In this document: positions 2 to 29,856 of the stretch, in pieces
How positions within the stretch are numbered: position 1 is the first letter of the stretch
Layout of the letters: each line of letters begins with the position of its first letter
Virus record (IMG/VR): IMGVR_UViG_3300022921_000024
Coordinates: 1-53,339 of that record
Strand: one strand, 5' to 3'
Length of the DNA stretch: 53,339 nt
Source of the DNA: a virus
Taxonomy: Duplodnaviria > Caudoviricetes
Made by a program: the position numbers and the translations under genes
The notes under the pieces: generated by a model
The model's database searches: none
Told to the model about the DNA's origin: nothing
Seen by the model: only the letters and a program-made list of their open reading frames with translations

Positions 2-1624
2 TCTCAAGGCAGTATGTTCTTTGGTCTAGGTGGTGGTGAAGAATTTGCAGTAGGTACAGATGCGGATTTAAACGGGGTTAATAGTAAGTTTGTAGTAAAA
101 CCCTCAGGCAACGTAGGTATTGGTACTACGAGTCCAGCATACAAGCTTCAAGTAAAAGGCGTGTCTGCAAATGTTAGCGATGGAGACCAGATATTTTCCG
201 TAGGCAACACCACGGGAGGAACTCAATTAGCTTTTGGTAGCTCTGAGAATTCTTATAACTGGCTTAGAAGTTATGAAAGTGGTGCTGGTGGTAGAGACTT
301 AGTTATTGCCACTAATGCAGAGGTGCTTCGCATCACCTCCGCAGGCAACGTAGGTATTGGTACTACGAGTCCGTCCGAGCATCTTTCCATAGAAGGCACA
401 GGAGACCAAGCGCTATCAATATATAGTAGCACTACAGGAGTTCAATCAACAGCTAGAACCTTTATCAAGTTATTTGGTCAAAATACCGCATCTACTAAGC
501 ACGAACAGGTTAGAATAGCATCCGCCCCTGGAGCAAGCGAATCAACAGCAGGACAGTTAATAATCAGCACTAACAATGCATCAGGTAATTTAACTGAGAG
601 ATTAAGGATAGACCAGGTTGGCAACGTAGGTATTGGAATAACCAATCCAGGGTCTTACGACAGTAATGCTGACAATTTAGTTATTGGGAGCGTTGGTGAA
701 AATGATAAAAACGGCATCACAATAGTTGGTGGTGACACCGATGGTAGAGGAGCTATATATTTTGCTGACACGACACAAAACAGTGCGGGATATATAACCT
801 ATAAGCACGTTAACAACTCTATGCTGTTTGGCACTTCTGACTCTACAGCTTTAACCATAGACTCTTCAGGCAACGTCGGCATTGGTACTACTAGTCCGAC
901 TGGTAAGCTACATATTGCTGATGACGGACCAAGTGCTTTAGTTATAGGGTCTGCGCAAATATCTACTATTGGAGAAACCAACAGTGGCGGATATCCGGGT
1001 ATGAAGATTGTCCCTTATAACAGTAATATTCATATCGGAATTAGCTCTACTAATGATAATAAGATAAACTTATGGTATGCAGGAAGTAATTACACTTATT
1101 GGCAACAGCTTTCTACCTATTCTGTAATTAGTAACTACTCAACTAATGCCTTAGTATTACAAGTAAACGGAGGCAACGTTGGTATAGGTACAACTAGTCC
1201 AACAAGCCCATTAGATGTATTAGGTAAGGTCTCAATAAACTCTGATGGAACTATTAACTGGGGAGCGAATAAAGATTACGGAAGGTTAACTTGGGATACT
1301 GGAAAAACTATTGTAAAAGCCTTAGCAAGCAAGGAGCTACATTTAGGAGCTAATAACCAGAACAGTGATTTAGTTATAAACACATCTGGTAACGTAGGTA
1401 TCGGTACTACTAGTCCTTCAGCACTGCTTCACGTTGCTGGAGAAGCACGGATTGACAATACAGGAGCATCTGTATCCAACCAATACACACCAACAGGAAG
1501 CAACAGCGTTGAAAATGTAATTGGCAACAACGAAGACAACAACGTACTTGGAACCCCTGATGTATGGCTTAGAATAAACGTAGACGGTACTAACTATGTA
1601 TTCCCCGGATACACAGAACCATAA
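2..1624 (+). CDS. Tail fibre protein, 5' part probably outside the window
   Basis: Six GNVGIG(T/I)T(S/N)P repeats separate beta-rich modules, typical of Bacteroidota phage fibres. The frame is open from position 2. C-terminus is WLRINVDGTNYVFPGY. Confidence 0.85.
   Translation, partial: SQGSMFFGLGGGEEFAVGTDADLNGVNSKFVVKPSGNVGIGTTSPAYKLQVKGVSANVSDGDQIFSVGNTTGGTQLAFGSSENSYNWLRSYESGAGGRDLVIATNAEVLRITSAGNVGIGTTSPSEHLSIEGTGDQALSIYSSTTGVQSTARTFIKLFGQNTASTKHEQVRIASAPGASESTAGQLIISTNNASGNLTERLRIDQVGNVGIGITNPGSYDSNADNLVIGSVGENDKNGITIVGGDTDGRGAIYFADTTQNSAGYITYKHVNNSMLFGTSDSTALTIDSSGNVGIGTTSPTGKLHIADDGPSALVIGSAQISTIGETNSGGYPGMKIVPYNSNIHIGISSTNDNKINLWYAGSNYTYWQQLSTYSVISNYSTNALVLQVNGGNVGIGTTSPTSPLDVLGKVSINSDGTINWGANKDYGRLTWDTGKTIVKALASKELHLGANNQNSDLVINTSGNVGIGTTSPSALLHVAGEARIDNTGASVSNQYTPTGSNSVENVIGNNEDNNVLGTPDVWLRINVDGTNYVFPGYTEP
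105..372 (+). repeat. Perfect 31-bp direct repeat (105-135 and 342-372) in the tail fibre gene
   Basis: CAGGCAACGTAGGTATTGGTACTACGAGTCC occurs twice, encoding GNVGIGTTS. Degenerate copies lie near 620, 869, 1172 and 1388. Confidence 0.9.
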
Positions 1625-4370: not shown

Positions 4371-5039
4371 ATGAGCTTTTTGAAAGACATTCTGCAAGTA
4401 GAATTTTCTTCTAATGAATATATAAGAGAAGAGTTTCCCAAAAAGCAAATCTATTTACACCATACCGCCGGTAATTCTAGCGGAGTTTCTACGTTTCGCC
4501 AATGGGATGCGGATTCTCGTGGCCGTATTGCCACTTGTGTTTGCGTTAGCGGAAAGGGAGCCAAAGAGGGCGATGGTCGAATTGTACAAGGCTTTAGTTC
4601 AAAGTATTGGGCATACCACCTTGGCGCAAAACAAGAGATATTTAAGGCCTATGACGTTCCGTATATTTCTCTTGATAAAATCAGCATCGGGATTGAAATA
4701 TGTGCCTGGGGCCAATTAGAAGAGAAAAACGGAAAGTACTACAACTACGTTAATCGAGAGGTATCAAAGGAAGATGTATGCACTCTTGATGAGCCATATA
4801 AGAAACACATCCACTTTCATCGCTATACCGATGAGCAAATCCGAAGCGTAGAAAACTTAATTAAGTACTGGAGCGAGAACTACGGAATTCCGTTATCCTA
4901 TAGCGAAGAGGATATGTGGGATGTTTCAACATCCGCGCTGTCTGGCGAACCCGGACTGTATACACACAATTCAGTCCGAAAAGACAAGATTGATATATTC
5001 CCACAACCAGAAATGATTCAAATGCTCAAATCCTTATAA
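4371..5039 (+). CDS. Endolysin, N-acetylmuramoyl-L-alanine amidase (Amidase_2 type)
   Basis: IYLHHTAG, WAYHLG, SIGIEIC and YTHNSVRKDKIDI are Zn-amidase motifs. Confidence 0.9.
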   Translation: MSFLKDILQVEFSSNEYIREEFPKKQIYLHHTAGNSSGVSTFRQWDADSRGRIATCVCVSGKGAKEGDGRIVQGFSSKYWAYHLGAKQEIFKAYDVPYISLDKISIGIEICAWGQLEEKNGKYYNYVNREVSKEDVCTLDEPYKKHIHFHRYTDEQIRSVENLIKYWSENYGIPLSYSEEDMWDVSTSALSGEPGLYTHNSVRKDKIDIFPQPEMIQMLKSL

Positions 5040-5797: not shown

Positions 5798-5918
5798 GAT
5801 ACTGTTTCTTATAGTTTGTTGCGTTCTTGCTTTTAGAAGTCTTTGTCTTAGCGTGAACTCCCGGACGGCTAACCTTAGCCTTTGTTTTAGCGCCTATGGC
5901 TTGTTGCAGTTTAGACAT
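5781..5918 (-). CDS. Small basic protein (45 aa) ending NYKKQYRGQGK
   Basis: Read manually. Similar YKKxYRGQG-ending micro-proteins are recurrent in phages. Coupled to the upstream stop (TAATG). Confidence 0.7.
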   Translation of the reverse strand: MSKLQQAIGAKTKAKVSRPGVHAKTKTSKSKNATNYKKQYRGQGK

Positions 5919-6226
5919 TATTCAAATATGTAATAGTAATAAAGTTCTTGGCCGCTACCAGTGTTCAATGTCTTAACTAAGACGCTGGTGTTTCCGTTTT
6001 CATTTTCCTTTTTCCAAGAAAGGCTAATGATTGTTCCTTGTTCGTATGTATCAATCTCGAACTGCTCTGCAGTTTTCATAATGTTCCTAACTCGGAAACT
6101 ATGACCTCGCATAATAATATTACTTTTTTTCACGGCCTCAAATATAACCTTTGGCTCTGTGCTAACATCTTGTCCGTACGCTAAAAGCGTTAAGGACATT
6201 GCGAGGGTTAAGAAAATGTTCTTCAT
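5918..6226 (-). CDS. Secreted/periplasmic hypothetical protein (102 aa)
   Basis: Bacteroidota-style signal peptide MKNIFLTLAMSLTLLAYG followed by Q. Confidence 0.7.
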   Translation of the reverse strand: MKNIFLTLAMSLTLLAYGQDVSTEPKVIFEAVKKSNIIMRGHSFRVRNIMKTAEQFEIDTYEQGTIISLSWKKENENGNTSVLVKTLNTGSGQELYYYYIFE

Positions 6227-6237
6227 AATAGATTGGT

Positions 6238-6289
6238 TACTTAAGTAAGTACGTCTTTACTCGTTGTTCTCGTAAAGACTACTTAAGTA
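6238..6289. promoter_or_regulatory. Paired TACTTAAGTA palindromes with an inner inverted repeat (operator/cruciform candidate)
   Basis: TACTTAAGTA at 6238-6247 and 6280-6289. GTCTTTAC (6253-6260) pairs with GTAAAGAC (6272-6279). Located in a divergent intergenic region. Confidence 0.5.
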
Positions 6290-6309
6290 TATAGTTACTA
6301 TTTTTTACA

Positions 6310-6361
6310 TATCTTTGCAAGGAACTTTATTTATTAATTATAAACAAAGTTTGTATATTTG
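6310..6361 (+). promoter_or_regulatory. Two -7 elements (TATCTTTG 6310, TATATTTG 6354) upstream of the podovirus-type head operon
   Basis: Match the Bacteroidota TAnnTTTG consensus. Confidence 0.65.
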
Positions 6362-6384
6362 CATATTAATCTAATTCAATCGCT

Positions 6385-7545
6385 ATGTCAGAAGACCTAG
6401 AAAACTTGGCTACTAGTCTTGGTTTAAACCTTGTCAATAGCCCTCAGGAATCGGAACAGACTCCCGAACCTGCAGAAGAATCAACTGAGCCAATTGTTGG
6501 CGGCGTTGAAGAAGAGTCTAACGTTCTTGAAAATACATCTGAGGAGGCTGCCGAGGAAACGGTGTCAGAAGAACAGCAAGAAGCTGTTTCTGAAACAACC
6601 GTCCCTGAAACGGAAGCATCCGATGAGCCGCAAACTGTTAGTTTTTCCGATGAGGAAATCATCAAGGCCGTTTCCGAAATGGTTGGGATTGATGGGACCT
6701 TCTCTAAGGAGGAACTAATAGAACTTTTAACCTCTAGTGGTGATGAGGTCCAGCAAGAACTTGACCCAACGGTCAAGGCAATTGCAGACTTTATCTCATC
6801 TACCGGGAAAACGGCAGACGATTGGTTTATGTATCAGTCCTTTAACCCATCCGAAATGGATGATTTGACTGTGTTGAAAACCGACCTTCAGCTGCAATAT
6901 CCGGACTTATCCGAAGAAGATGCGCAACTTCTGATGGAAGCTAAGTACAAGTTAAACTCAGACGAGCATAGTGAGAATGATGTTCGACTGGGTATGCTGC
7001 AACTTAAAATGGATGCAAAAGCTGCTAGAGATGGACTTGAAAAAGTCCGAGAATCATATCGCGTTCCAGAGCGGAAAGAAGTTAAGCAAGATTCGAAAGA
7101 AGATGCTGTATTTCAATCTCCAATTGACGATGCGTGGATTTCAAATATGTCAAAGACTGTTGACTCAATGGAAACATTGAAATTCAACGTTGGAGACAAG
7201 GAATTTAACTTCGGGTTAGATTCAAAGTACAAGAGTTCTTTGAAAAGCAGTAATGCAGATTTAGAAAACTATTTCGTTCAGTATATTTCTGAAGACGGAA
7301 GTTGGGACTTTAATAGGTTATCAACTCACCGCGCAGTAGTTGACAACATCGACGCCATTGTCAAGGCCGTTTACGGTCAGGGCCTTAGTGACGGTCAAAG
7401 CAGTGTTGTAAAAGAGGCCGTAAATCCTTCTAGCACCGCTCCTTCTTCTAGTTCTGTTGACACCGCTTCTGCAGAGGACAAAGTACGAAAGCAAATTCTC
7501 AACGCCTTGAGGGGTGGCGACGATACTCTCTCAATTCGTTTTTAA
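6385..7545 (+). CDS. Capsid scaffolding protein (module 1)
   Basis: Very acidic, disordered N-terminus, helical core and YGQGLSDG motif. Immediately upstream of the capsid gene, as in phi38:1/crAss-like phages. Confidence 0.75.
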   Translation: MSEDLENLATSLGLNLVNSPQESEQTPEPAEESTEPIVGGVEEESNVLENTSEEAAEETVSEEQQEAVSETTVPETEASDEPQTVSFSDEEIIKAVSEMVGIDGTFSKEELIELLTSSGDEVQQELDPTVKAIADFISSTGKTADDWFMYQSFNPSEMDDLTVLKTDLQLQYPDLSEEDAQLLMEAKYKLNSDEHSENDVRLGMLQLKMDAKAARDGLEKVRESYRVPERKEVKQDSKEDAVFQSPIDDAWISNMSKTVDSMETLKFNVGDKEFNFGLDSKYKSSLKSSNADLENYFVQYISEDGSWDFNRLSTHRAVVDNIDAIVKAVYGQGLSDGQSSVVKEAVNPSSTAPSSSSVDTASAEDKVRKQILNALRGGDDTLSIRF

Positions 7546-7572
7546 TGTTCAATCGCCTAATAAATAGAAAAA

Positions 7573-8865
7573 ATGGCTGTTACTGGACCCACGGACTTTA
7601 GTCCTTCAATGATTAAAAACTTGTCTATGGACAAGTACATTTCTCTTGGTGCTTACATCAATGAGATTAATAAGCCCGATAACCGCGACGCCTTGGTTAA
7701 GACCTTTGGCGAGCAGGGAATCACTGGCTTCCTTCAGCTGGTTGGTGCTACCAAGGCACAAGCTGTTGCTGATGAAGTCACCTACTGGGAAGAGACTCGT
7801 TTGCACGCTAAGCAAACTGGTTCTTTCTCTGCTGACGACACTTTCTCTGCTGCTTCCGCTGCCGCTGTTATCGTTCGCGTTAACGACGTAGTATTGGTTG
7901 GTGGCGAGACTCGCGCTTTCGTATCTGCAGTTTCTGGCGCTGACATCACGTTGGTTGCTTTGGATGGCTCTACGTTGGCTAGCACGTTGACCGACACTGC
8001 CCTTCCTGTTATTGGTAACTTGTACGCACAAGGAACCGAGCAGCCTGGTGGTGGTTTTGAGTCTAACGTTGTTAAGCGTACGAACCCATTTATGATTATG
8101 AAAGAGGCCTACAAGGTTTCCGGTTCACAAGCTACCAACATTGGTTGGATTGACTTGGGTAACGGCGACTACCGTTGGTACTTGAAGTCTGAAGGTGATA
8201 CTCGTAAGCGCTTTATGGATAAGCGTGAGATGATGTTGCTTTTGGGCGAGACCACTTCTGCTGTTACTGGCATCGCCGGTTCTGAAGGTTACTTCGCTGC
8301 AGTTGAAGACCGTGGTATCGTTTCTTCTGATGCTTTCACCGATATGGACCACATTGACAACATCGTTAAGGAGTTGGACAAGCAAGGTGGTGCTTCTGAG
8401 TACGCTATGTTCGTTAACCGTACGGTTGACTTGGCTATCGACGACTTGTTGGCTGCTGGTGTTGGAACTTTGACCTCTAACGGTGTTTCTGGTCAGTTCG
8501 GTTCTTTCAACAACGACAAGGAGATGGCTATTCAATTGGGCTTCCGTTCATTCACTCGCGGTGGATACACTTTCCACAAGAAAGATTGGAAGTTGTTGAA
8601 TGACCCTACGTTGTTGGCTGATTCTGCTTTCCGTGGCGCTTGTGTTCCTATGTCTAAGGTTGCTGACCCCAAGACTGGTGACAAGGCTCCTGCTTTGGAA
8701 ATGAACTACAAGGCTGCTAACGGCTACAGCCGCGAAATGGAGCACTGGATGACTGGCTCTATCTTGGGTGCGTCTAACGCAACCGAGGACAGCGTACAGT
8801 TCAACTATCGCTCTGAGTGTAACCTCATCACTCGTGCCGCTAACCGTCACGTATTGTTGAAGTAA
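7573..8865 (+). CDS. Major capsid protein 1 (Cellulophaga phi38:1-like podovirus type, 430 aa)
   Basis: Motifs YWEETRLH, KEAYKVSGS, WYLKSE.DTRKRF, GSEGYFAAVEDRG, LGFRSFTRGGYTFHKKDWKLLND. Strong high-expression codon bias. Terminator follows. Confidence 0.88.
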   Translation: MAVTGPTDFSPSMIKNLSMDKYISLGAYINEINKPDNRDALVKTFGEQGITGFLQLVGATKAQAVADEVTYWEETRLHAKQTGSFSADDTFSAASAAAVIVRVNDVVLVGGETRAFVSAVSGADITLVALDGSTLASTLTDTALPVIGNLYAQGTEQPGGGFESNVVKRTNPFMIMKEAYKVSGSQATNIGWIDLGNGDYRWYLKSEGDTRKRFMDKREMMLLLGETTSAVTGIAGSEGYFAAVEDRGIVSSDAFTDMDHIDNIVKELDKQGGASEYAMFVNRTVDLAIDDLLAAGVGTLTSNGVSGQFGSFNNDKEMAIQLGFRSFTRGGYTFHKKDWKLLNDPTLLADSAFRGACVPMSKVADPKTGDKAPALEMNYKAANGYSREMEHWMTGSILGASNATEDSVQFNYRSECNLITRAANRHVLLK

Positions 8866-8885
8866 TCACTTCACCTGGTTTCAAC

Positions 8886-8952: not shown

Positions 8953-9765
8953 ATGGCTGAAGAACGCCCAACCTCAAAGCGCCCCGCTGCACAAAAGAAA
9001 GCACCGGCCGCTATCAAAACATCTAGCAGCACGTCAAATAAAAAGCCTGCTGCTCCAAAACCCGTAGTATTTTCAATCCCCAAAGGTGGAGGAATCTGGC
9101 AAAAGATTCGTCAAGATGGTATTGTAATCTTTGATGAATCCGTTGGATATAATCGAGAGATTCGATACTCACCCGGAGAAAAGTCAATCTTTGTTGACGA
9201 ACAGTCAAGCACGGCTCGACGTGAGCAGATTGTGTTCCGAGATAAGACATTGATGGTTAATCAAACGATGCCAAATCTTATTGAATACTTACGAAATCAC
9301 CCAGATAATCAGGTAAATGGAGGAAAGTTATTTATTGAAGTAAATAACGAACACAACGCGGAAGAGGAACTGGAAAAAGAGTTCTTGCTTCACGACGCAA
9401 TTTCTTACATTAAAGAATCTGAGATTGATACACTGCTACCACTTGCTCTTTCTTATGGCATTTCAGCGGATTTGTCAAGCCTAGAGATTAAGCGCTCATT
9501 GATTCAACAAGCAAAAGGAAACCCAAAAACGTTTATGGAAAACGTAAACAGCCCGCTTGTTAAACTTAAGGCGCTGGTAATCACGGCATTAGACTTCCAG
9601 ATTTTAAAGTCTAAGTCTGATGGTATGTACTGGTATGATTCTAATCAGATTATTATCCCAACTCCGGCAGGACAGGATACTAAATCTGTGTTCACCCGAT
9701 TCCTTATGTCAGAACGCGGATACGATGTCCGCGAGGAATTGGAACGACAACTTAATGATATGTAA
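8953..9765 (+). CDS. Conserved post-capsid protein of phi38:1-like phages (270 aa)
   Basis: REIRYS...SIFVDEQ...IVF and YLRNHPDN motifs. Position after the capsid gene. Confidence 0.65.
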   Translation: MAEERPTSKRPAAQKKAPAAIKTSSSTSNKKPAAPKPVVFSIPKGGGIWQKIRQDGIVIFDESVGYNREIRYSPGEKSIFVDEQSSTARREQIVFRDKTLMVNQTMPNLIEYLRNHPDNQVNGGKLFIEVNNEHNAEEELEKEFLLHDAISYIKESEIDTLLPLALSYGISADLSSLEIKRSLIQQAKGNPKTFMENVNSPLVKLKALVITALDFQILKSKSDGMYWYDSNQIIIPTPAGQDTKSVFTRFLMSERGYDVREELERQLNDM

Positions 9766-9787
9766 CGACACATATCAATTAATTAAT

Positions 9788-9819
9788 AAAGCACTCTCTA
9801 ACGGGGGTGCTTTTTTTTT
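9788..9819 (+). terminator. Rho-independent terminator, followed by -7 element TATCTTTG (9822-9829)
   Basis: AAAGCACTC-TCTAACG-GGGGTGCTTT plus T run. Confidence 0.75.
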
Positions 9820-9847
9820 AGTATCTTTGTATCTCAAAGATTAACAG

Positions 9848-10594
9848 ATGGCATCGGTTTACGAAGTATATAGTACGCTAAAAGCTCTTGCGAACAAGGA
9901 CACGAATGGTATGATTACGCCATCTCAGTTCAATAAGTTTGCTGGGGTTGCTCAACAGTGCGTCGTTAATGATTTATTTAACGACCTTGTCGGAACGAAC
10001 CGCTTGGGCGTATATAATTTCTCAGAGACTCGCCCGTCGGACAGCAAGAAAAAAATTCTTGAGGATTTAGCCGTTTTTTCGAAAAGCGCTTTAATATCTG
10101 CTGTTTCGGGAACGTTTCAAAAGCCTGATGATTTATTTAGAATCATTAGTATGTCAACAATGGGAAGCTGGGTTTTAGATAGGCTGACTTCTAACAATAT
10201 TGAACTCATTTATGATGAGGAGAAGTTAGAAAGAATCCTACGAAGCACTTTATCAATTCCTACTGACGACACACCCGTTGCATTAATATCTAATGATATA
10301 CAGGTGTTCCCAACATCTGTAAAAAATATTAAATTACGTTATTACAAAACACCAGAAGGTGTTTCTCCTATTGATGGCTCAAAGACTCCAGCATTACCGT
10401 CTTTCGGATATACTGTTGCGGCAAATGGAACCGAAGTTTATGACCCAACTACATCCGTTGACTTTGAACTCCCAAATCATTATATTGAGCCTCTTGTTAT
10501 TGAGATTGCAGAAATGATGGGGGTAAGTCTTCGCCAGAGTGATTTGTATAATTATGCTCAAACTGAAGAGCAGGAAGATAAGAAACTTAAGTAA
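9848..10594 (+). CDS. Head-tail ring/adaptor protein (podovirus-type, module 1)
   Basis: N-terminal VYEVYSTLKALANKDTNGMITPSQFN, LRYYKTP and DFELP motifs, resembling crAss-like/phi38:1-like ring proteins. Confidence 0.65.
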   Translation: MASVYEVYSTLKALANKDTNGMITPSQFNKFAGVAQQCVVNDLFNDLVGTNRLGVYNFSETRPSDSKKKILEDLAVFSKSALISAVSGTFQKPDDLFRIISMSTMGSWVLDRLTSNNIELIYDEEKLERILRSTLSIPTDDTPVALISNDIQVFPTSVKNIKLRYYKTPEGVSPIDGSKTPALPSFGYTVAANGTEVYDPTTSVDFELPNHYIEPLVIEIAEMMGVSLRQSDLYNYAQTEEQEDKKLK

Positions 10595-11400
10595 TGGCTC
10601 GAAACGTAGTAAGCATTAAAGATATTGTAAATGACTTTATTCTAGGTATGTCTGGCGACGACTACGTCAGCGGTACCCCAGATTATGTCGTTCACAATTT
10701 AGCTCTTCGTGGAGTCAGGGAGATGGGATTTGACTTAATGAAAAAACTTAAGTCAATTAACCTTGATGTAAATAAGGAAAACGCAACAGTAGAGCTGCCT
10801 GACGATTTCGTAGACTTTGTTCGAATTGGGTATGGTGGCTCTGATGGTCTTTTTTATTCTTTTAAAGAGAATAAAAACTTAAACACCTCTATGAAATATG
10901 TCATTGACTCGGGAGGGAATCCAATTGATTCTAACGATGATGGAGTAAATGACCGAGAGGATGACAAAACTGGTATTGCAAATCTTGGAAGTAATGCTGA
11001 AAACTATCCGTACGTACAATATGTATACGAGAATACGGATGGCCGACAGTATGGATATGGTGGAGCCCGTGCTGAGGCTCAATTCCGATTAAACTACGAG
11101 CAAAACAGGATTGAGATTTCTACGGATTATATGCTTGACACCGTCACCATCGAGTACATTGCTGACGAAGCGCGTTCTCAGGACCCTAGTGTGCATATTT
11201 ATTGCGAGGAAGCCCTACGTCAATATGTTTATTATAGACTTGTTGAACGCAAATCTGACGTTCCATATAATGAAAAAGCTAGAGCTCGTCAAGAATACTT
11301 TAATGAATTGCGTCGAGCAAACGCACGTATGAATTCATTCTCAAAAGACGAAGCACTATTTACGATTCGCAAGAACTTCCGTCAAAGCCCTAAATTCTAA
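10594..11400 (+). CDS. Second tail ring / tubular protein (module 1)
   Basis: LPDDFVDFVRIG, IEYIAD and VH.YCEEAL..YV motifs. Translationally coupled to the previous gene. Confidence 0.65.
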   Translation: MARNVVSIKDIVNDFILGMSGDDYVSGTPDYVVHNLALRGVREMGFDLMKKLKSINLDVNKENATVELPDDFVDFVRIGYGGSDGLFYSFKENKNLNTSMKYVIDSGGNPIDSNDDGVNDREDDKTGIANLGSNAENYPYVQYVYENTDGRQYGYGGARAEAQFRLNYEQNRIEISTDYMLDTVTIEYIADEARSQDPSVHIYCEEALRQYVYYRLVERKSDVPYNEKARARQEYFNELRRANARMNSFSKDEALFTIRKNFRQSPKF

Positions 11401-11406
11401 GGCCTT

Positions 11407-14400
11407 ATGGCTATTGATAAACTTACACCGCGTGCCTTGACTTTAGACAAGGACCCTAAAATTACCGCACCTGTTGATTTCACATACGCGAATAATCTTC
11501 GCGTTACTGTTGATGCAAATGGTGACGGTGGTGTAATCAAAAATATACTTAGCGATGCGGCCATCACGTTGGACGAATCGATGCCACTAGGCTCAAATAC
11601 TGTTATCGGATGCTATGCATTCGAGCTAATTAACACTCTGTTTTTTTTCATTTCAAACTCAGAGAGCAATCACACGATTTGGCAATACGTAACAAGTGAA
11701 ACAACTGCGCAAAAGGTAATTGAAAGTTCTTACCTTAATTTTCGCGCTGATGATTTTTATTACGTTGACGGCGTTTTGTTTAACAACGAGCCATATTTGT
11801 ATATGACAAATGGGCGAAATGAGCCAATTAAAATCAACCTAAATTCAGCGTTGAGCACACCAGGGTATCCGGTATCAATTAATGATATTTCTGTAGCAAA
11901 ACGCCCGCCGCTTGCTCCGTATGCAGAGTTTGCAACACACAGTGACCACGGCGGCCACAGCTTGATTGGCGAGTCTTTCCAGTTTGCGGCACAATATGTT
12001 TATAGGGATGGCGAGGAGTCGGCAATTGGGCATTACTCACCGCTTTATGCGTCTCCAAATACTCTAAACGAAACGATTGCAAGCCACGCTTGGGAACTTG
12101 AGTATAATTCACTACTTGTAAGCGTAGAGCCTCTTGACAGTTCTGTAGAGAAAGTTCGTCTTTATTTTAGAAACAACTCTTCTGCGCCATTCTACTTTGT
12201 AGAAGAAAAAGACCACACTGGCTCAGTCGTTGAGTTTGACTTTCACAACGATAAGATATATCCAGTACACCCAGACGTCGAGTCAAACAAAATGTTTGAC
12301 GCCGTTCCTCGTTCGGCATCTGCGCAAGCATATATTGGAGGACGCATTGTTTATGGGAACTACAAGGAGGGATTTGACGTACCAGCGCAGAGCGCTACTA
12401 TAACTCCAGTATACTATGATGCTCCAGGCTTAAACAATTTAGATGTAGAGGTATTACCTACGCACGCATCTAATAGAATGGTTATTCGTGTAAATATTGA
12501 CGACCTCCCAGAGAATGGTGACGCTGGAACATTTATTTTAAATGCGGCTCTAAATAAAGCAGGTGTAACACTAAACCAACCACAGACCGCTGTAATTACG
12601 TTTAAAAACGGCACCACGGCGACTGATACTGTAACTCCAAAGTTTGAGACCGAAAAGTATACTATTAATCAATATGCTGAATATAATCAATACTTAAGCA
12701 AAAGCGATTTTGCATCTCAAATAAACAATTCAATTGCCGGAACGGAAATTGAAATACCAGTATTCACTCAAAACAATTATGTTGAACATATAGATTTAGT
12801 TCAGTATAACATATACTACGGAGGAAGTAGCGTTTGGGAGATAGAATCTGTTACGTATGTTACACCAGCTGTTGGAATTCCATTTAACTTATCTACGGTT
12901 CTTGAGTTTAGGCTTAAGCTTGTTAGCGCTGAGCTTGCATCACATTTAATTCAAATAGATTCATCAGGATTAGACGCGGTTGGCGCCACATCGTTTTTAT
13001 CTATAGACAACAGCGCGGATGCGACAATGACCGGAACCTTTGCTTTAATTGATTCATCTGGAGTTTCAGACGCAATATGCTATACGTCAAACGAAATGGG
13101 AAGTAGAGCCTTTAAAAGCGGGGAAAGCCATACTTTCGGAGTTGTTTTTGAAGATTATTTCGGACGTCAAAGCGGTGTGCAGGAAATAGGTGCAACCTAC
13201 GTAGAATGGACAGGCTCTCCAAAAAGAATTGGTAAAAACGGAAAAGCTGCTATAAAGATTGACTTAACATCATTGATGCCGTCTTGGGCGAATAGGTTCT
13301 TCTTTGTGTATGGTGGCGGTGACAACTATGTTAACTACATTCAGTACGCAGTGACTGAAGCCTTTCATTACGAGCAAGGCTCGCCAAAGGTTATATTGTC
13401 CCTTCGCGGACTACAGGGTAATGACCGCTCCTTGCAAAAAGCAAAGGGCGCGGCGATAAATTATTCTTTTTCCGAAGGTGACAAGGTTCGGGTTGTATCC
13501 TATGTATCAACGGATGGAAATATCGTATATCCATACAACCTTGAGTTTGATGTTGTTGATTTTATAAAAACAACTGACCCATCTGAGTTGCCAACCACAG
13601 CAAGTGGCGGGAACACATCGGACCAAAACGAACGAACGTCAGGAGATTTTGTTGTAATTGACGCCAGAAACATCACAGATTTCGGCTGGAGTTATGTTAA
13701 CGATGATGTAGACCTATGGGCAAATGAATGTGTTGTTGAACTTTTTAATGACGGGAAGAAAACATCACAAAATTCAGCATATTATGCTTGCTCTCCTTCA
13801 TATCCAAGAACTGAATACACTAATGTATTTACTTTGACTGATGGAAACTGCTGGTATAAGCCACGATTAATTCGTGGATTCCAATGGGATTCTTCAAATC
13901 CATATACCCCGGCGGACTCGGCTGAGATGGAGGACTATGTCAAATTTGTTGAAGCTGAAGAGTATACTGATTATGACTCCGACGCTAAGTACTACACAAA
14001 GGGAAAAGTTAACGCTGTAATATACAACGAAAAAGAAAACAATCAGTTTGCGTCAATAACTTGGTCAGAGCCGTTAAATACGGATTCATCTTCCCTTGTG
14101 TTGAGTTCTTTTAACAACTCTCTCGCCAACTGGTTTGACTTTGAAATGTCTCAGGGAAACATTCAGGGGATTGCAAACAAATCCGATTTTGCATTAATTA
14201 TGCAAAAAGACGGAATCGCCATAACAAAACCAAATACTGATTTCCTTCAATCCGGAGACAATCAGCTTGTGTCTATAAATAACAACTTTATATCTGGATA
14301 CGCTTACTTCGACTCTAAGATTGGGCTTCAGTATAGAGGTTCTTTTTCTTCAGTAGAGGGAGCTGTTATAGGTTTAGATGTATACAGGGGTATGCTTTGG

Positions 14401-15414
14401 TCTGCTGGTAATAACGGAATAAAAATCATATCTGAAAATGGTATGAGCAAGTATTTCGCAGATTACTGCCGCGAAATTTCAGATAGAGACCAGCGCGGAA
14501 GTGGAGATGTTATTACGGTTTTAGAACCAGGAGCTGAAATAACAAATATAACAATTGGTTACGACCGAAGAAATAAAGAGGTTTTAATAAATAGAATTGA
14601 TTTAACCTCTGTTATTATACCATCTGGAGGTTCGGAGACCGTATATGGATGGTCAAAAGATTATTCCAATCCATCAATCGTTTACAACACGAAAGAGGAG
14701 GTTTTCACATCGTTTAGAGACCTTTGTGCTGACGGTTTTGGGAGCATAAACAATAGGTTTTTTGCAGTTCGCGCAAGCGGCGGCAGTTATATTTGGGAAC
14801 AGGAAGTTGGACCAACTTATGGAAATCTAATCGGGACAAAGTATAATATGTCATTCGACTGCGTTTCAAGCAAGGGCGTGTCTTCAGTAAAGGCATACAA
14901 TGCTGTTTCCATAGAGGGCAACAAGCCCGCATCCTGTGTGTTCACAACTGAAAAACAAACAGCATCACTGAATAGCGCTCGATTCTCTGAAAAAGAAAAC
15001 TCTTTCTTCTCTGGAATGCCAACAGCATCTGGTACAACTGAGTATACTACGGTAGGAAAGGTTAATTCAGTAAGTGGGAATAATGTTACATTCTACAACT
15101 TTGTGAATCGCATTCCGTTTAGGGTCGGCGGAGACGCCTACCTGCTGTCAGGAACAGCGCTATCTTCACTGTCATCAACTATTGATTCTATTGAAAGCGC
15201 AAAAACGCTTTCATTTAGCGACGCTTCTGGCGTTTCTCAAAATAATATAATTGTTGTCAAATCAGACTCTTCAATTGATGGAGATGCGATTAGAGGTCAT
15301 TGGCTAGAGACTAAGTTTACCTTTGAAAACGGGGACGAACAATACCCAACAAAGATTTACGCAGTTAACTTTAATTACGCTCAAAGCGACATTCATCACG
15401 TTTCTCAAGAGTAA
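11407..15414 (+). CDS. Tail stabilisation / muzzle (nozzle) protein, P22 gp10-like (1335 aa)
   Basis: N-terminal LTLDKDPK...YANNLRV, FQFAAQYVYRDGEESA, VPRSASAQ...GGRIVYGNYKEG, GVVFEDYFGRQS and C-terminal GDAIRGHW, as in short-tailed Bacteroidota phages. Confidence 0.75.
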   Translation: MAIDKLTPRALTLDKDPKITAPVDFTYANNLRVTVDANGDGGVIKNILSDAAITLDESMPLGSNTVIGCYAFELINTLFFFISNSESNHTIWQYVTSETTAQKVIESSYLNFRADDFYYVDGVLFNNEPYLYMTNGRNEPIKINLNSALSTPGYPVSINDISVAKRPPLAPYAEFATHSDHGGHSLIGESFQFAAQYVYRDGEESAIGHYSPLYASPNTLNETIASHAWELEYNSLLVSVEPLDSSVEKVRLYFRNNSSAPFYFVEEKDHTGSVVEFDFHNDKIYPVHPDVESNKMFDAVPRSASAQAYIGGRIVYGNYKEGFDVPAQSATITPVYYDAPGLNNLDVEVLPTHASNRMVIRVNIDDLPENGDAGTFILNAALNKAGVTLNQPQTAVITFKNGTTATDTVTPKFETEKYTINQYAEYNQYLSKSDFASQINNSIAGTEIEIPVFTQNNYVEHIDLVQYNIYYGGSSVWEIESVTYVTPAVGIPFNLSTVLEFRLKLVSAELASHLIQIDSSGLDAVGATSFLSIDNSADATMTGTFALIDSSGVSDAICYTSNEMGSRAFKSGESHTFGVVFEDYFGRQSGVQEIGATYVEWTGSPKRIGKNGKAAIKIDLTSLMPSWANRFFFVYGGGDNYVNYIQYAVTEAFHYEQGSPKVILSLRGLQGNDRSLQKAKGAAINYSFSEGDKVRVVSYVSTDGNIVYPYNLEFDVVDFIKTTDPSELPTTASGGNTSDQNERTSGDFVVIDARNITDFGWSYVNDDVDLWANECVVELFNDGKKTSQNSAYYACSPSYPRTEYTNVFTLTDGNCWYKPRLIRGFQWDSSNPYTPADSAEMEDYVKFVEAEEYTDYDSDAKYYTKGKVNAVIYNEKENNQFASITWSEPLNTDSSSLVLSSFNNSLANWFDFEMSQGNIQGIANKSDFALIMQKDGIAITKPNTDFLQSGDNQLVSINNNFISGYAYFDSKIGLQYRGSFSSVEGAVIGLDVYRGMLWSAGNNGIKIISENGMSKYFADYCREISDRDQRGSGDVITVLEPGAEITNITIGYDRRNKEVLINRIDLTSVIIPSGGSETVYGWSKDYSNPSIVYNTKEEVFTSFRDLCADGFGSINNRFFAVRASGGSYIWEQEVGPTYGNLIGTKYNMSFDCVSSKGVSSVKAYNAVSIEGNKPASCVFTTEKQTASLNSARFSEKENSFFSGMPTASGTTEYTTVGKVNSVSGNNVTFYNFVNRIPFRVGGDAYLLSGTALSSLSSTIDSIESAKTLSFSDASGVSQNNIIVVKSDSSIDGDAIRGHWLETKFTFENGDEQYPTKIYAVNFNYAQSDIHHVSQE

Positions 15415-17592: not shown

Positions 17593-17600
17593 TATATTTG
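17593..17600 (+). promoter_or_regulatory. -7 element TATATTTG
   Basis: Upstream of the probable start ATG 17628. Confidence 0.6.
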
Positions 17601-17627
17601 TTGTGCTCAAACTTCAAGCACGACATT

Positions 17628-20600
17628 ATGGAACCCGAAGAAATTAAAGGAAAAGTAGAAAGATTTCAGGCCGCTGGAGTCGATAAAGAAACCATCACGG
17701 GATGGTTCAAGTCAAAAAACATCGGCGGATGGGAATCTTACTATGACCCAAACTACGGACAGTCGGGAAAAGCAAACGCCGCGTCCGCTGGGTCTGGGGC
17801 GAGCGCGGCTACTACGGGTTCCACGTCGAATAATGGAGGCGGCTCTTTCTTGAGCGCCTATAAGCCACAACAAACACAAATCACTGACCCAACAGAGGGT
17901 GGCCTGTATACCGAAGAGGAAGTGCGGGCAAAGCGCGCGGACAAATTCCAATCTGGAAGCCGCTTGCAGACTATGGAGGCTGCCGGTGACCTTGCTTACA
18001 ACTTAAACACTTTACAGACCACGCTTGGTGATATGCAAGCTATGTTTGAGCGCGGTGCCCAAGCACGCGCCGAAGGTAAGTCTTTTGAAGATGCGTTCCC
18101 GAACTTGACGACGGACTACGTATCTGGCCTAACTGAAGAGCAAAAGGCCCAGAACGCCCTTTCGTCTTCCGCTACATTTAGACAGGAGAAGCCTTTTCAG
18201 GACTATATGCTTGGCTCTTATCAGGCTTTAGAGAGCCTTAATGTAAAGGTGAGTGCGCTTGTTGATGAAAAAGAACAAGACCAAGGCTTTAAAGAAAATA
18301 TGGCGCGGGCTGGCTTCGACGGAAGTATGTCGCTTCAGCAGGCCCTTAATCAATATACACCAAGCATTGTTTCATATACGAATGAAGCAAATTCCGCATT
18401 TGCTGGGGCGGGTGCTAATGAAATTGTTACAGTGGATGAGAATGGCGTAAGCATCAATGAAGATGCCTACAACAACCTTGCTGTAACTATGGATGCATTC
18501 CAGAAGGAACAAGACGAAAGACTTGCTCAAGAGCGCAAAACGCTCGAGGGACACGGTGACTTATGGCAGTTCGGTTATGATATGATGACTGGAGTGAAGA
18601 ACATAAGTATGGACCTGGAGGGTATGTATACTGAGATTGTTGGAACTGATTCCGAAATGGAGAGTTTACAATATGAGCAGTATCTACAGGGTTTCCGCCG
18701 AACGGCTTCTTTGCAATTAGACGGACTTTCCAATGAAGAGATTGAGAAAGGTGTTGTTGAAAATATTTTGGAGGGAAACTTCGACGCTGGATTTTCTATC
18801 CTTACAACCGATTTGGCTCAGACTATGCCGCAACTTGCGGCTCAGGCTGCCATTACATATGGTACTGGCGGCTTTGGAAGCCTTGCCCTACGTGGCGCTG
18901 CAGGGACTGCTGCTCGATTTGGTATGACCGGAACGGCTCGCAGCCTAGCGACGTCTACATTCGCCCGCAATATGTCCTACTGGGCAGGCGCTGGCTTTAT
19001 GGGGTCTACCACCGCTGGAAATACACTCATTAGCACTTACGGGACGATGGAGGACAGTCAGCGTTACCAGATGGCTGTAGGAAACGCCGTTGTCGAAACG
19101 TTGTCTGAGCGACTGTTCGTTGGAGACATTAAGGCTGTGCTTGGCACTGAACTAAAAGGCCTTACTCGACGTGAGATTCGTCAAAGAGTTTTCGGAACTG
19201 GTCTTTTTTCTAGCGAGATGCGTGCCCTATCCGCAGACTTAGCAAAAAAAAGTGGAAAGCAATTCCTAAAAAACGCTGGAGAAGAGGGACTTGAGGAATT
19301 TGTTGCTGGATTGGGTTCTGCTTGGATTGAAGGTTTTGTTACCGGAAAGCCAATGCAAATCAATTACGCTGAACTTGCTGACCAGTTCTTGATTGGCGCT
19401 GCCGCTGGTGGTGCAGCTGGCTCGGTCGGAGCTGCTAAGAGAGGAAACTTTTTAAAGGCTTCTTTTGCCTCTGTTGGCGTTCTAAGTAGCAACTACGTAA
19501 ACATTCGCGCAGAGCGCGTAGCAGCGGAAGAGGCTGTTCGTAACGCTCGTGACGAAGCAGAAGCAAGTCGTCTTCAGGGTCGTGCACAAGCCTTAGCTGC
19601 TGTCGAAGCGCAGACTCGCGGCGAAGAGATTGCCATCTTAGAAAATATGACAGACGAGCAGTTGGGTACTGCTACTACTTTATACCACCGAATTCGTAAC
19701 GCCGCCTTCGTTGCAAACAACGAGAAGGCTACCGAAGAGGAGAAGCAGGCTGCTATCCTAGATGGCAAAAAGGCTAATGCTGAACTAAAGGCCCTAAAAG
19801 AGCAGACCGCTCCCGCTGGACTAGTTGCAGAGAGAGAGCGTGAAGCAGTTGCTAACTTTGACTTCGGGACTGAAGGAACTATTGAGGTTTCCGATAAGAC
19901 GGACGCGCAAGGAAGTTCGTTTGTTGCAGAATTGTCTAAAATTGCCACCGCACTTGGAGGAAACAAGGTATTGCTGCACAAAGATTATGATGCCGCTGCG
20001 GCATCCGCGGGAAAGAATAAGGAAGACCTACTCGGCAGCCGCGGTTTCTACAAGGCTGATGACGGAAGTATTCACATCGTTCTACCGGCAGCGCAGAGCA
20101 ATACTGCATTCCACGAGGCTTATCACGCAATTGCCCGCAACGTAGACCCCAAATACTTAAAGAACTGGTTGGCGGCATCTATGCCTGCCCTAATGGAGTT
20201 GCCCACCGAACTGCAAAACAAGTATGCCGCATACTTCGAGAAGTATGGTAATGACAAGTCTGAGCAGGGTAAGCGTCTACTCGCTGAGGAGATTTGGGCT
20301 GAGATGCGAGCAGACATTGCCACAGGCAAGATTACTGTGGAGAATAGTGGTTCTGCCTTGTCTCACGGAATTGCTGGCGCTATGAACGCCGCCCTACGTG
20401 GACTTGGTCTTAAAATCAACAAATATCAGTCCTTCAAGGACTTTTCCGACTTTATGGATGCAACTACTGAGAGCCTAAAGAAAGGTACTCAGGTTGGTCG
20501 CTTCCAGGAAGAGCGATTTGACGCTCCTACTACAAATAGAGATGTTCTGTCTCAAATGGAGAAAAGCGGTGTCGATGGCTCTATCGACCCACAAACGTTC

Positions 20601-28159: not shown

Positions 28160-28384
28160 TTATCTTGTACCTTTTCCGTCAGTAGTTGCTTTTTTTGCAA
28201 CAACTGAAGAATAATCTCCGTCGCTTCCGACGAATTCCCAAACATTTAAGTTAATCTGCTCACCGGTAGACAAATCAAACTCTCGCTTGATTGTGTCTCC
28301 GGTCTCTTGGTCGTAGTCAACATACGTTCGGGTGCGGCCGTACTTCTTAAGTTCGCCCGTTTCTTTGTTTCTAAAATAAGGCAT
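28160..28384 (-). CDS. Hypothetical protein (74 aa)
   Basis: Coupled to the upstream gene (TAATG). Confidence 0.6.
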   Translation of the reverse strand: MPYFRNKETGELKKYGRTRTYVDYDQETGDTIKREFDLSTGEQINLNVWEFVGSDGDYSSVVAKKATTDGKGTR

Positions 28385-28815
28385 TATATAAACTTTTCAT
28401 AAAACCTAGATGCTTGTTCCCAAGGGAGAAAGCCAACACGCTTAGAAACTCTTTTTCCGCCCATAGAGCCAACTTGCGTATGGGCATTACACGTTAAGTG
28501 TTTCCATTTTGGCTCAGGGCATTTGTTTAGGTTGAAAATCCAAACATCTCCTTCGTGCTCGTTCACATATAGTGGCTTGTATCCAAGCTTGTCGGCGCTT
28601 TCTTTAAGCGCCTTCCACTTATTGTGCTCAATGAGAAAGTCTCCATACTCCCTTTTATACTTATCGTCGCGACACTTTAACTCAACAATTAGCCCATTGA
28701 TATCGTCAACGCAGTCCCACTTACTGAATTGGTCTTCTGTTTTATTTAGATTTGGTAGAATCTTTTTTTTCAGTGTCTCGTACAGGATGCGTTCGTTATC
28801 ATTTATATGAGGCAT
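28384..28815 (-). CDS. PD-(D/E)XK nuclease-like protein
   Basis: WDCVD...IVELKCR...LIEHNKW...LYVN restriction-endonuclease-fold pattern. Confidence 0.7.
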   Translation of the reverse strand: MPHINDNERILYETLKKKILPNLNKTEDQFSKWDCVDDINGLIVELKCRDDKYKREYGDFLIEHNKWKALKESADKLGYKPLYVNEHEGDVWIFNLNKCPEPKWKHLTCNAHTQVGSMGGKRVSKRVGFLPWEQASRFYEKFI

Positions 28816-29015
28816 TATTCCTTGTTATACTTCTCAAGCAATATGCTAAGAATTTTATAAGAAGCAAGACCCGCCATAAATGCAATTTCCCTTTGAGCGG
28901 ATTTATCTAATACCGTTGCTAGAATAAAAAAGCATCCAGCAAATATAATCATCATTTCAAAAGCAGTAAATTGCCTAGCTGTAATTCCTTTAATCTTCTT
29001 TAGAAACTGTTTCAT
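28815..29015 (-). CDS. Small two-TM membrane protein
   Basis: Two hydrophobic segments. Coupled ORF. Confidence 0.6.
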   Translation of the reverse strand: MKQFLKKIKGITARQFTAFEMMIIFAGCFFILATVLDKSAQREIAFMAGLASYKILSILLEKYNKE

Positions 29016-29108
29016 AGTTTAGTGTTTTGCAGTTAAAATAATTAGTAAAATCATCTTTTTTTACTGTTGCCGTTTGAACCCATTTTGGTTCGTCATCGTG
29101 GGTAATTG

Positions 29109-29726: not shown

Positions 29727-29856
29727 CTTTATCTAAGATTGGTTTACGGTCTAGCCAAGTGCGGTACATACGTGCCGCTACAGCAATGCGCTGTGGGTAG
29801 AATGGGTAGCTCTTACGCAACCGAGCAAGGGCTATCCTGATAAACTGGTCTCTCAT
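29704..29856 (-). CDS. Small basic protein (50 aa, MRDQFIRIALARLRKSYPFYPQR...)
   Basis: Read manually. TGATG coupling with the helicase stop. Confidence 0.6.
   Translation of the reverse strand: MRDQFIRIALARLRKSYPFYPQRIAVAARMYRTWLDRKPILDKDDIDGIY

What the first reader, a model, noticed from the sequence alone, without database searches (positions are those of the whole stretch)
5900..8865. Podovirus-type head operon has no adjacent portal or terminase
Seen: the scaffold gene is preceded by a divergent promoter region and small minus-strand genes. The only terminase (37641) and portal (51522) in the window belong to module 2. Established: in phi38:1-like phages the terL-portal-scaffold-capsid genes are usually clustered, with a large portal that docks the ring proteins. 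Inference: either a second portal/terminase lies outside the window, or both heads share one packaging motor, which would be mechanistically new.
Basis: partly seen in the sequence, partly recalled or inferred. Interest (0 to 1): 0.75.

Follow-up and report, generated by a model that had tools for sequence, protein, structure and literature searches.

The report
Two phage fragments joined in assembly
The capsid operon lacks a neighbouring portal and terminase because this record is most likely an assembly join of pieces of two unrelated phages, and the first phage's own portal and terminase lie just beyond the start of the record.

Summary
The literal observation holds. The phi38:1-like head operon (6385-15414) has no portal or terminase beside it. 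The only TerL (37641) and portal (51522) in the 53,339-bp record belong to a second, tape-measure-bearing phage module.

The "shared packaging motor" reading is not supported. The window is the whole record, linear, and cut inside a fibre gene at each end.

- **Left part.** Bases 2528-29113 are 97-98% identical to a podovirus contig (G006). After that point G006 continues with podovirus early genes.
- **Right part.** Bases 44356-53339 are 94% identical overall (98.6% over the last 1.3 kb) to a siphovirus-like contig (L178). L178 continues past the window's last base.
- **The join.** It lies in a 235-nt element (29119-29353) carried by both phage groups. Logan contigs of 4 of 4 runs break there, and the two sides have unequal depth.
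- **The missing genes.** A contig overlapping the G006/G007 lineage at 99.95% carries a 710-aa TerL and an 806-aa portal about 10.5 kb upstream of the position matching the window's start. All 5 relatives searched have the same pair 15-17 kb upstream of the capsid gene.
- **The second module.** Its relatives are 94-100% complete at 35-39 kb and have their own HK97-fold capsid protein.

Verdict: chimeric contig, ordinary biology, low interest.

The parts
2..1624 (+). Tail-fibre gene of the podovirus part, open at the 5' end of the record. It carries 5-6 internal repeat units.
   Evidence: PHROG tail-fibre families 18345 and 9942. The ORF is open from base 2. Internal repeats D2 and D3. It is 36-38% identical to the 604-aa fibre of L212, L002 and L003.
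4371..5039 (+). Amidase_2 endolysin of the lysis cassette upstream of the head operon.
   Evidence: Pfam PF01510 E 9.8e-11; PHROG 1794; 100% identical in G006 and G007.
5918..6226 (-). Small conserved minus-strand ORF (102 aa) between the lysis genes and the scaffold gene.
   Evidence: It is 92% identical in L002 and L003 and 32% in L004. No family hit.
6385..7545 (+). Scaffold-like protein with an acidic N-terminus, homologue of phi38:1 gp092.
   Evidence: tblastn E 5.6e-10; present in 80 of 81 loci searched, phi38:1 included; sequence. The scaffold role is inferred from position and composition only.
7573..8865 (+). Major capsid protein of the phi38:1-like podovirus (gp093 homologue).
   Evidence: PHROG 13704 E 3.9e-124. 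It is 32.8% identical to phi38:1 gp093. The Calle_1 homologue is annotated as major capsid protein.
8953..15414 (+). Four genes homologous to phi38:1 gp094-gp097: 8953-9765, 9848-10594, 10594-11400 (weak match to the SU10 adaptor family) and 11407-15414 (weak match to the crAss muzzle C-terminal domain).
   Evidence: Both Pfam hits are below their curated cut-offs (22.5 against 27 bits; 18 against 27 bits).
17598..26957 (+). 3119-aa ORF at the end of the podovirus structural operon. Function not determined.
   Evidence: Its first 429 residues, all that locus L002 reaches, are 98.6% identical in G006. Window 19942-29113 aligns to G006 at 98.1% DNA identity.
28384..29112 (-). Last three minus-strand genes shared with podovirus contig G006 (143, 66 and 40 aa). 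Similarity to G006 ends at the start codon at 29112.
29119..29353 (.). The join: a 235-nt intergenic element. It is bounded by two copies of a 25-nt leader-plus-ATG motif on the minus strand (29110-29134 and 29330-29354) and is present in both phage lineages.
   Evidence: It is a separate Logan unitig with depth 54.8 in X1 and 89.2 in X3, between long contigs of depth 17.4 and 27.9 (X1) and 13.2 and 47.8 (X3).
29856..30815 (-). DnaB-like helicase, the first clear gene of the siphovirus-like part.
   Evidence: PHROG 5482, 239 and 19. It is 68-85% identical in the 80 IMG/VR loci kept.
37641..38894 (+). Large terminase (417 aa) of the siphovirus-like phage.
   Evidence: PHROG 2 E 6e-45; Pfam Terminase_6N E 2e-16. 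It is 71-77% identical in all 5 relatives searched, G008-G012.
41175..44804 (+). Tape measure protein (1209 aa).
   Evidence: 18 PHROG matches, 13 of them annotated as tape measure; best E 4e-33.
48534..49556 (+). XkdF-like prohead protease (340 aa; possibly fused to a scaffold domain, which was not tested).
   Evidence: Pfam PF14550 E 4.7e-10, above its cut-off.
49599..50492 (+). HK97-fold major capsid protein (297 aa) of the siphovirus-like phage.
   Evidence: Model with mean pLDDT 86.6. The top PDB matches are phage capsid proteins, E about 1e-11 to 1e-10. 4 of 78 relatives match Pfam Phage_capsid.
51522..52763 (+). Small portal (413 aa) of the siphovirus-like phage.
   Evidence: PHROG 11226 E 1e-21, also 33693 and 12. 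No similarity to the 806-aa portal (BLASTP E 1.2).
53285..53339 (+). First 55 bases of the siphovirus-like phage's fibre gene, cut off by the end of the record.
   Evidence: L178 is 98.6% identical up to the last base and continues the ORF for 1.17 kb.

Best explanation
The record is a linear chimeric metagenome contig.

Bases 1 to about 29119-29353 are a fragment of a phi38:1-like podovirus. The fragment runs from tail fibre through lysis genes, scaffold, capsid, adaptor- and muzzle-like proteins and the giant protein to the first early genes.

The remainder, to 53339, is a fragment of an unrelated tape-measure-bearing phage of about 35-39 kb. That phage has its own TerS/TerL, tail genes, protease, HK97 capsid protein and 413-aa portal.

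The two were joined in silico through a 235-nt intergenic element, with a repeated early-gene leader motif, that both phage lineages carry.

The podovirus head operon lacks a neighbouring portal and terminase for two ordinary reasons. First, in this clade TerL and portal sit 12-17 kb upstream of scaffold and capsid, separated by fibre and lysis genes. Second, the contig starts inside a fibre gene, about 10 kb short of them.

Shown: the homologies, the divergence points, the shared repeat, the breaks and unequal depths of independent contigs, and the TerL-portal pair in the overlapping contig. Inferred: that the join was made by the assembler rather than in a cell.
For: 1. The window is the whole one-contig record, classed as linear, with no terminal repeat.
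2. Window 2528-29113 matches G006 (L002 and L093) at 97-98% DNA identity. G006 then runs 10.7 kb further with genes collinear with the early region of podovirus G001. Against the window these give only four weak tblastx pieces (23-71 bits) and no collinear match.
3. The relatives G001-G005 (capsid protein 67-93% identical; 4 of them 100% complete at 61-65 kb) all have a phi38-type portal of 810-827 aa (5 of 5). All have TerL next to it (5 of 5), 15-17 kb upstream of the capsid gene. None has the window's small portal or TerL (0 of 5 each).
4. L212 overlaps G007 over 4007 bp at 99.95% and G006 over 1716 bp at 99.88%. It carries a 710-aa TerL, an 806-aa portal, a 396-aa ORF, a 2032-aa fibre and a 604-aa fibre. 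Its TerL is 35% identical to phi38:1 gp090 (E 2e-121) and its portal 30% identical to gp091 (E 2e-95).
5. Relatives of the right part, G008-G011, are 94-100% complete at 35.0-38.7 kb. All 5 searched (G008-G012) have the window-type TerL (71-77% identical), and 0 of 5 have the phi38-type capsid protein.
6. L178 matches the window up to its very last base (98.6% over 52000-53339). It then continues 1172 nt with a fibre ORF that is shared with L180 and L181 (88%) and absent from the window. The record is therefore not a closed circle.
7. The 25-nt motif occurs only at 29110-29134 and 29330-29354 in the window (0 expected by chance). It occurs in 35 of 80 helicase loci of the siphovirus-like group (50 copies) and in the early regions of G006 and G001, and in 0 of 151 structural-region loci.
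8. In 4 of 4 runs laid, the listed Logan contigs stop inside 29119-29492. None of the listed pieces joins the long left contig to the long right one.
9. Depths left against right are 17.4 and 27.9 (X1), 13.2 and 47.8 (X3), and about 9-11 and 36.5 (X9). The 29119-29353 unitig has depth 54.8 (X1) and 89.2 (X3), at or above the sum of the two sides.
10. In X8 a 355-nt contig covers 29244-29358 and then runs on for 240 nt unlike the window. Its first letters match the G006 gene that follows G006's own motif copy.
11. An exact 53-nt word from the left edge of the junction element (the point where similarity to G006 ends) occurs in no other IMG/VR contig (the window's own record may be left out of that scan).
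Against: - No raw paired or long reads were examined. Only Logan contigs were laid, which by construction break at repeats, so the failure to bridge does not prove that no molecule carries the join.
- 416 further contig pieces were not listed.
- Unequal depth shows that most copies of the two sides are unlinked, not that none is linked.
- The left-hand divergence from G006 falls exactly at a gene start (29112/29113), as natural mosaic boundaries do. A 16.6-kb contig from run X8 crosses that point with 0 mismatches, so that particular boundary is a real strain difference and not the artefact.
- The two lineages share a homologous fibre and lysis cassette (34-64% amino-acid identity) and the regulatory element. 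They therefore probably infect the same hosts and could recombine in nature.
- CheckV rates the record 100% complete. That estimate does not test for chimerism.
Confidence: 0.86

Rival explanations
1. A real recombinant DNA molecule. The podovirus and the siphovirus-like phage, co-infecting one host, recombined at the shared 235-nt leader element. The contig would then report a natural hybrid, probably defective, but with no shared assembly machinery.
For: - The element is shared by both lineages.
- Both carry homologous fibre and lysis genes, so they are likely to meet in one host.
- Seven salt-marsh runs hold 90-96% of the sampled words of 28300-30000. This only shows that both sides are present in those runs.
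Against: - Depth differs across the join in 4 of 4 runs, and no listed contig bridges it.
- No other IMG/VR contig has the junction word.
- Relatives of either side never carry the other side's genes (0 of 5 in each).
- A joint molecule would need at least 53 kb plus the missing about 10 kb on the left and the missing fibre and lysis genes on the right. That exceeds the 35-39 kb genomes of the right-hand lineage.
Confidence: 0.1
2. One phage with two head systems and a single shared motor. The 413-aa portal and 417-aa TerL would serve both the HK97-type 297-aa capsid protein and the phi38:1-type 430-aa capsid protein.
For: Only that the record holds two capsid genes but one TerL and one portal.
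Against: - Everything listed for the best explanation.
- The record is cut inside genes at both ends, so absence from it says nothing about the phage.
- Every relative of the podovirus head operon whose genome was searched has its own large portal and TerL (5 of 5; also L212).
- The two portals show no detectable similarity.
Confidence: 0.02
3. The contig is colinear and real because two prophages, or a phage and another element, lie side by side in a host chromosome.
For: None found, beyond two phage-like modules lying next to each other.
Against: - No integrase-like hit among the ORFs scanned, which were not all ORFs.
- No host genes in the record.
- Relative G002 has direct terminal repeats at 63 kb, as a free phage genome does.
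- Both modules are truncated fragments.
Confidence: 0.02

Closest known systems
Cellulophaga phage phi38:1 (Pervagoviridae, Callevirus) structural module gp090-gp101
   Same: Window 6385-15414 is collinear with gp092-gp097: scaffold-like protein, capsid protein at 32.8% identity, then four virion proteins. Fibre and lysis genes lie upstream in both.
   Different: In phi38:1, TerL (879 aa) and portal (828 aa) directly precede gp092. In the window's clade they lie 12-17 kb upstream, before the fibre and lysis genes. The window's last ORF is 3119 aa, against 1691 aa for gp101. Identities are low (22-32%), so this is a distant relative and not a Callevirus.
IMG/VR podovirus contigs G006/G007 plus L212 (uncultivated, unnamed)
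   Same: 97-98% DNA identity over window 2528-29113. Same gene order from the lysis cassette to the first early genes.
   Different: The fibre gene differs (36-38% amino-acid identity). G006 carries 10.7 kb of podovirus early genes where the window carries the shared element followed by the second phage.
Uncultivated tape-measure-bearing phages of 35-39 kb (G008-G011, L178, L180)
   Same: TerL 74-77% identical and portal 64-100% identical. Same order: tape measure, protease, capsid protein, portal, 168-aa gene, fibre. The helicase operon lies on the other strand.
   Different: The window lacks their fibre and lysis segment, which lies between the 168-aa gene and the helicase operon, and ends 55 nt into the fibre gene.
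Repeat-mediated chimeric contigs in viral metagenome assemblies
   Same: Two unrelated genomes joined at a sequence that both contain, with unequal coverage on the two sides and graph branch points at the repeat.
   Different: The assembler's role was not demonstrated from raw reads. That such artefacts occur is general knowledge. A literature search listed benchmark papers such as PMC4247695 and PMC3901335, of which I saw only the search listing.

Membership tests
phi38:1-like (Pervagoviridae-type) podovirus structural module | Capsid protein homologous to phi38:1 gp093 | tested here: met
   PHROG 13704 E 3.9e-124; tblastn E 9e-52 at 32% identity.
phi38:1-like (Pervagoviridae-type) podovirus structural module | Collinear homologues of gp092 and gp094-gp097 | tested here: met
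   All five were found in order, E 5.6e-10 to 2e-23.
phi38:1-like (Pervagoviridae-type) podovirus structural module | Large portal (about 800 aa) and large TerL (700-880 aa) in the same genome | tested here: not met
   Absent from the record. Present in the overlapping contig L212 of the 97-98% identical lineage and in 5 of 5 relatives. The failure reflects truncation of the record.
Chimeric (mis-joined) contig | The nearest relatives of each part continue differently beyond the join or the ends | tested here: met
   G006 diverges at 29113 into podovirus genes. L178 continues beyond 53339. No near-identical contig of the right-hand phage that crosses the join itself was available.
Chimeric (mis-joined) contig | The join lies in sequence shared by both source genomes | tested here: met
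   The 29119-29353 element and the 25-nt motif occur in both lineages. Exact shared words of 35 nt were found in 6 of 80 loci of the siphovirus-like group.
Chimeric (mis-joined) contig | Different abundance of the two sides within one sample | tested here: met
   Contig depths are 17.4 against 27.9, 13.2 against 47.8, and about 10 against 36.5 in X1, X3 and X9.
Chimeric (mis-joined) contig | No read pair or long read spans the join | not testable with these tools
   Only Logan contigs were available for the runs, and the single read-laying run was used.
HK97-type tailed-phage head module (right-hand part) | TerL, portal, prohead protease and an HK97-fold capsid protein | tested here: met
   TerL and portal; protease PF14550; capsid fold.

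The most novel reading that the evidence does not exclude
The join is real, and a natural hybrid genome carries a phi38:1-type head and tail operon inside a siphovirus-like backbone. The 413-aa portal and 417-aa TerL would then have to serve two unrelated capsid proteins, or the podovirus operon would ride as cargo.
Probability: 0.03. Interest if true: 0.85.

Novelty: not a real feature. Interest (0 to 1): 0.08.

Why it matters
If the join were real, one motor filling two unrelated capsids would be new biology. The evidence says instead that this public viral record, rated 100% complete, joins two phages. That matters in three practical ways:
- The record should not be used as a genome for taxonomy, genome-size or gene-content statistics.
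- Other first-stage findings on this window that rest on "two structural systems in one genome" inherit the same artefact.
- Separation of TerL-portal from scaffold-capsid is the norm among environmental relatives of phi38:1, so non-adjacency alone should not be read as loss.

Tried and rejected
- **First fold of 49599-50492.** A 5-row alignment gave mean pLDDT 35.7, which is unusable. I repeated it with 78 rows.
- **Terminal repeats and circular closure.** No terminal repeat was found. Joining the end to the start would put a stop 10 codons after the join.
- **Motif as a podovirus-only marker.** I first took the 25-nt motif to mark where podovirus sequence ends. I dropped this when the motif turned up in 35 of 80 loci of the siphovirus-like group.
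- **Breakpoint at 29113.** I first placed the artefactual breakpoint where similarity to G006 ends. I dropped this because contigs of X1, X3 and X8 cross that point with 0 mismatches. The ambiguous zone is 29119-29353.
- **Right side in run X8.** It has almost no cover there (0-1.6).
- **Sigma-70 promoter scan of 5300-6500.** It found no more sites than chance.
- **Paper search naming phi38:1.** The search was rejected for a sign in the term and I did not pursue it. No statement here rests on the phi38:1 literature. Supplementary files were not consulted.
- **Co-folding the 413-aa portal with the 9848 and 52756 proteins.** I did not run it, because I do not claim that these proteins bind.
Full report
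**What the window is.** The 53,339-bp window is the entire record: one contig, a virus record that IMG/VR classes as linear. It has no terminal repeat.

The first ORF is open from base 2 and is a tail-fibre gene. The last 55 bases are the start of another fibre gene. The near-identical contig L178 continues that gene for 1.17 kb. L178's continuation has no match in the window, and joining the window's end to its start gives a stop after 10 codons. The record is therefore a linear fragment cut inside genes at both ends. There is no "rest of the contig" to search.

**The observation.**
- Window 6385-15414 is collinear with phi38:1 gp092-gp097.
- 7573-8865 is the capsid protein: PHROG 13704 E 3.9e-124, 32.8% identical to phi38:1 gp093, and the Calle_1 homologue is annotated as major capsid protein.
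- One conserved minus-strand ORF (5918-6226) precedes the scaffold-like gene.
- No phi38-type TerL or portal is found in the record, either with the phi38:1 proteins or with the much closer L212 proteins.
- The only TerL (37641-38894) and the only portal (51522-52763) lie in the second module.

The literal observation is correct. The promoter part of it has no support.

**The premise.** In phi38:1 itself, TerL and portal directly precede gp092. Among IMG/VR relatives of the capsid gene this is not so. Of 45 loci with at least 9.9 kb upstream of the capsid gene, 8 have a phi38-type portal anywhere in that stretch. In all 8 at least 2.8 kb separates the portal match from the scaffold match, so in none of the 45 is the portal directly next to the scaffold gene.

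Five relatives were searched whole: G001, and G002-G005, which are 100% complete at 61-65 kb. All 5 have a portal of 810-827 aa, and all 5 have a TerL immediately upstream of it. The pair lies 15-17 kb upstream of the capsid gene, with fibre and lysis genes in between. Non-adjacency is therefore the clade's normal layout.

**Where this lineage's portal and TerL are.** G006 (39.9 kb) and G007 (14.2 kb) match window 2528-29113 and 2528-9316 at 97-98% DNA identity. Contig L212 overlaps G007 over 4007 bp at 99.95% and G006 over 1716 bp at 99.88%.

L212 carries, in order, a 710-aa TerL, an 806-aa portal, a 396-aa ORF, a 2032-aa fibre, and the 604-aa fibre that corresponds to the window's first gene. 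The TerL is 35% identical to phi38:1 gp090 (E 2e-121), and the portal is 30% identical to gp091 (E 2e-95).

The missing genes therefore lie about 10.5 kb before the position matching the window's first base. This is shown for the G006/G007 strain. For the window's strain, whose fibre gene differs, it is inferred.

**The second module is another phage.**
- Window 29856-53339 encodes a DnaB-like helicase and an exonuclease on the minus strand.
- On the plus strand it encodes TerL, a tape measure protein, an XkdF-like protease, a 297-aa protein, a 413-aa portal and a 168-aa protein.
- The 297-aa protein has the HK97 capsid fold: a model from a 78-row alignment has mean pLDDT 86.6, and its best PDB matches are phage capsid proteins at E about 1e-11 to 1e-10.
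- Relatives G008-G011 are 94-100% complete at 35.0-38.7 kb. All 5 searched (G008-G012) have this TerL at 71-77% identity, and 0 of 5 have the phi38-type capsid protein.
- Conversely, 0 of 5 podovirus relatives have the small portal or the small TerL.
- In relatives of the second module the order is portal, 168-aa gene, fibre genes, lysis genes, then (convergent) the helicase operon. The window lacks that fibre and lysis segment.

**The join.** Similarity to G006 ends at 29113, the start codon of a 40-aa minus-strand gene. G006 then runs 10.7 kb further with genes collinear with podovirus G001 (60-87% identity by tblastx). Against the window these give only four weak tblastx pieces and no collinear match.

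From 29109 onward, short stretches match loci of the siphovirus-like group, for example 94% over 29119-29217 in L109 and 100% over 29326-29360 in L097.

A 25-nt leader-plus-ATG motif on the minus strand occurs in the window only at 29110-29134 and 29330-29354. Elsewhere it is found in 35 of 80 helicase loci of the siphovirus-like group (50 copies) and in the early regions of G006 and G001. It is found in none of the 151 structural-region loci. Contigs G001 and G006 both end within about 100 nt of such motif copies, so this repeat also stops other assemblies.

**Independent contigs from reads.** Logan contigs of four runs from four studies were laid on 27000-32000.
- In X1 and X3 a long contig (24.0 and 8.1 kb) covers 27000-29148 with 0 mismatches and ends there.
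- A separate 235-nt unitig covers 29119-29353.
- Short pieces cover 29327-29492.
- Another long contig begins at 29466 (X1) or 29515 (X3).
- None of the listed pieces joins the two long contigs. A further 416 pieces were not listed.
- Depths left against right are 17.4 and 27.9 (X1), 13.2 and 47.8 (X3), and about 9-11 and 36.5 (X9).
- The 235-nt unitig has depth 54.8 (X1) and 89.2 (X3), at or above the sum of the two sides, as expected if both genomes contain it.
- In X8 a 16.6-kb contig runs through 29266 with 0 mismatches. A 355-nt contig covers 29244-29358 and then continues for 240 nt unlike the window. Its first 30 letters correspond to the G006 gene that follows G006's own motif copy.
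- An exact 53-nt word from the left edge of the junction element, where similarity to G006 ends, is in no other IMG/VR contig. The window's own record may be left out of that scan.

**Reading.** The simplest account is an assembly path that entered the shared 235-nt element from the podovirus and left it into the other phage. I put this at about 0.86. What remains open is whether some real molecules carry the join, as natural recombinants at the same element (about 0.10). Contigs cannot exclude that.

The shared-motor idea needs the join to be real, the hybrid to be viable, and a 413-aa portal to nucleate a capsid whose every searched relative uses a portal of about 810 aa with no detectable similarity to it. 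I put it at 0.02-0.03.

**Limits.**
- No raw reads or read pairs were seen.
- Depth figures are one value per contig.
- The 97-98% identical lineage, not the window's exact strain, supplies the TerL-portal contig.
- Functional labels for gp092 and gp094-gp097 homologues rest on PHROG and GenBank "structural protein" annotations and on two Pfam hits below their cut-offs.
- The papers were seen as a search listing only.

Noticed in passing
window 29109-29395; also L093 19560-19850, L095 about 11980-12395, and many of L097-L176: A 235-nt intergenic element with a 25-nt leader-plus-ATG motif is shared by two otherwise unrelated phage lineages. It is multi-copy in their early regions (35 of 80 helicase loci) and has very high depth in metagenomes (259-706 in some bins). 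It may be a common early promoter or translation leader tuned to one host, and a hotspot for both natural and in-silico recombination.
   Followed up: partly
window 33638-33731 and 36711-36871: Two clusters of an ATACTATATAG-type repeat of about 14-16 nt, seven copies in all, lie in inverted orientation about 3 kb apart and flank the early genes of the siphovirus-like part. They look like iterons or operator arrays.
   Followed up: no
window 37641-53262; L178, L180, L189: The siphovirus-like lineage has an unusual but conserved order: TerL, tail genes with tape measure, protease, capsid protein, portal, fibre. The portal lies about 13 kb downstream of TerL, not next to it.
   Followed up: partly
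window 1846-5464 and 28384-28815; L100-L102, L191: The two lineages share homologues of several small fibre- and lysis-cassette genes (34-64% amino-acid identity). They also share a 143-aa gene at the end of the early operon (27-33% identity, found in 36 of 101 loci). This suggests a common host and module exchange.
   Followed up: partly
window 27371-27652: A 93-aa ORF is conserved in 71 of the 81 loci searched. In relatives it lies about 4-5 kb upstream of the capsid gene, while in the window and G006 it lies downstream of the giant gene. This is a rearrangement within the clade.
   Followed up: no
window 17598-26957: A 3119-aa ORF with a TTG start is nearly twice the length of phi38:1 gp101 (1691 aa). 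It lies in a stretch of higher G+C (0.47-0.48 against 0.40-0.44 elsewhere). No homology to gp098-gp101 was detected.
   Followed up: no
G004:C1:47095-49404 and G005:C1:55148-57604 (L198, L201): The TerL matches in two complete relatives contain in-frame stops: 1 TAA in G004, and 1 TAG plus 2 TAA in G005. These may come from an N-terminal extension read through upstream stops, a split gene or an insertion.
   Followed up: no
whole record (G000): CheckV's completeness for this record is given as 100%, although it lacks essential genes of both source phages. Such estimates do not flag chimeras.
   Followed up: no
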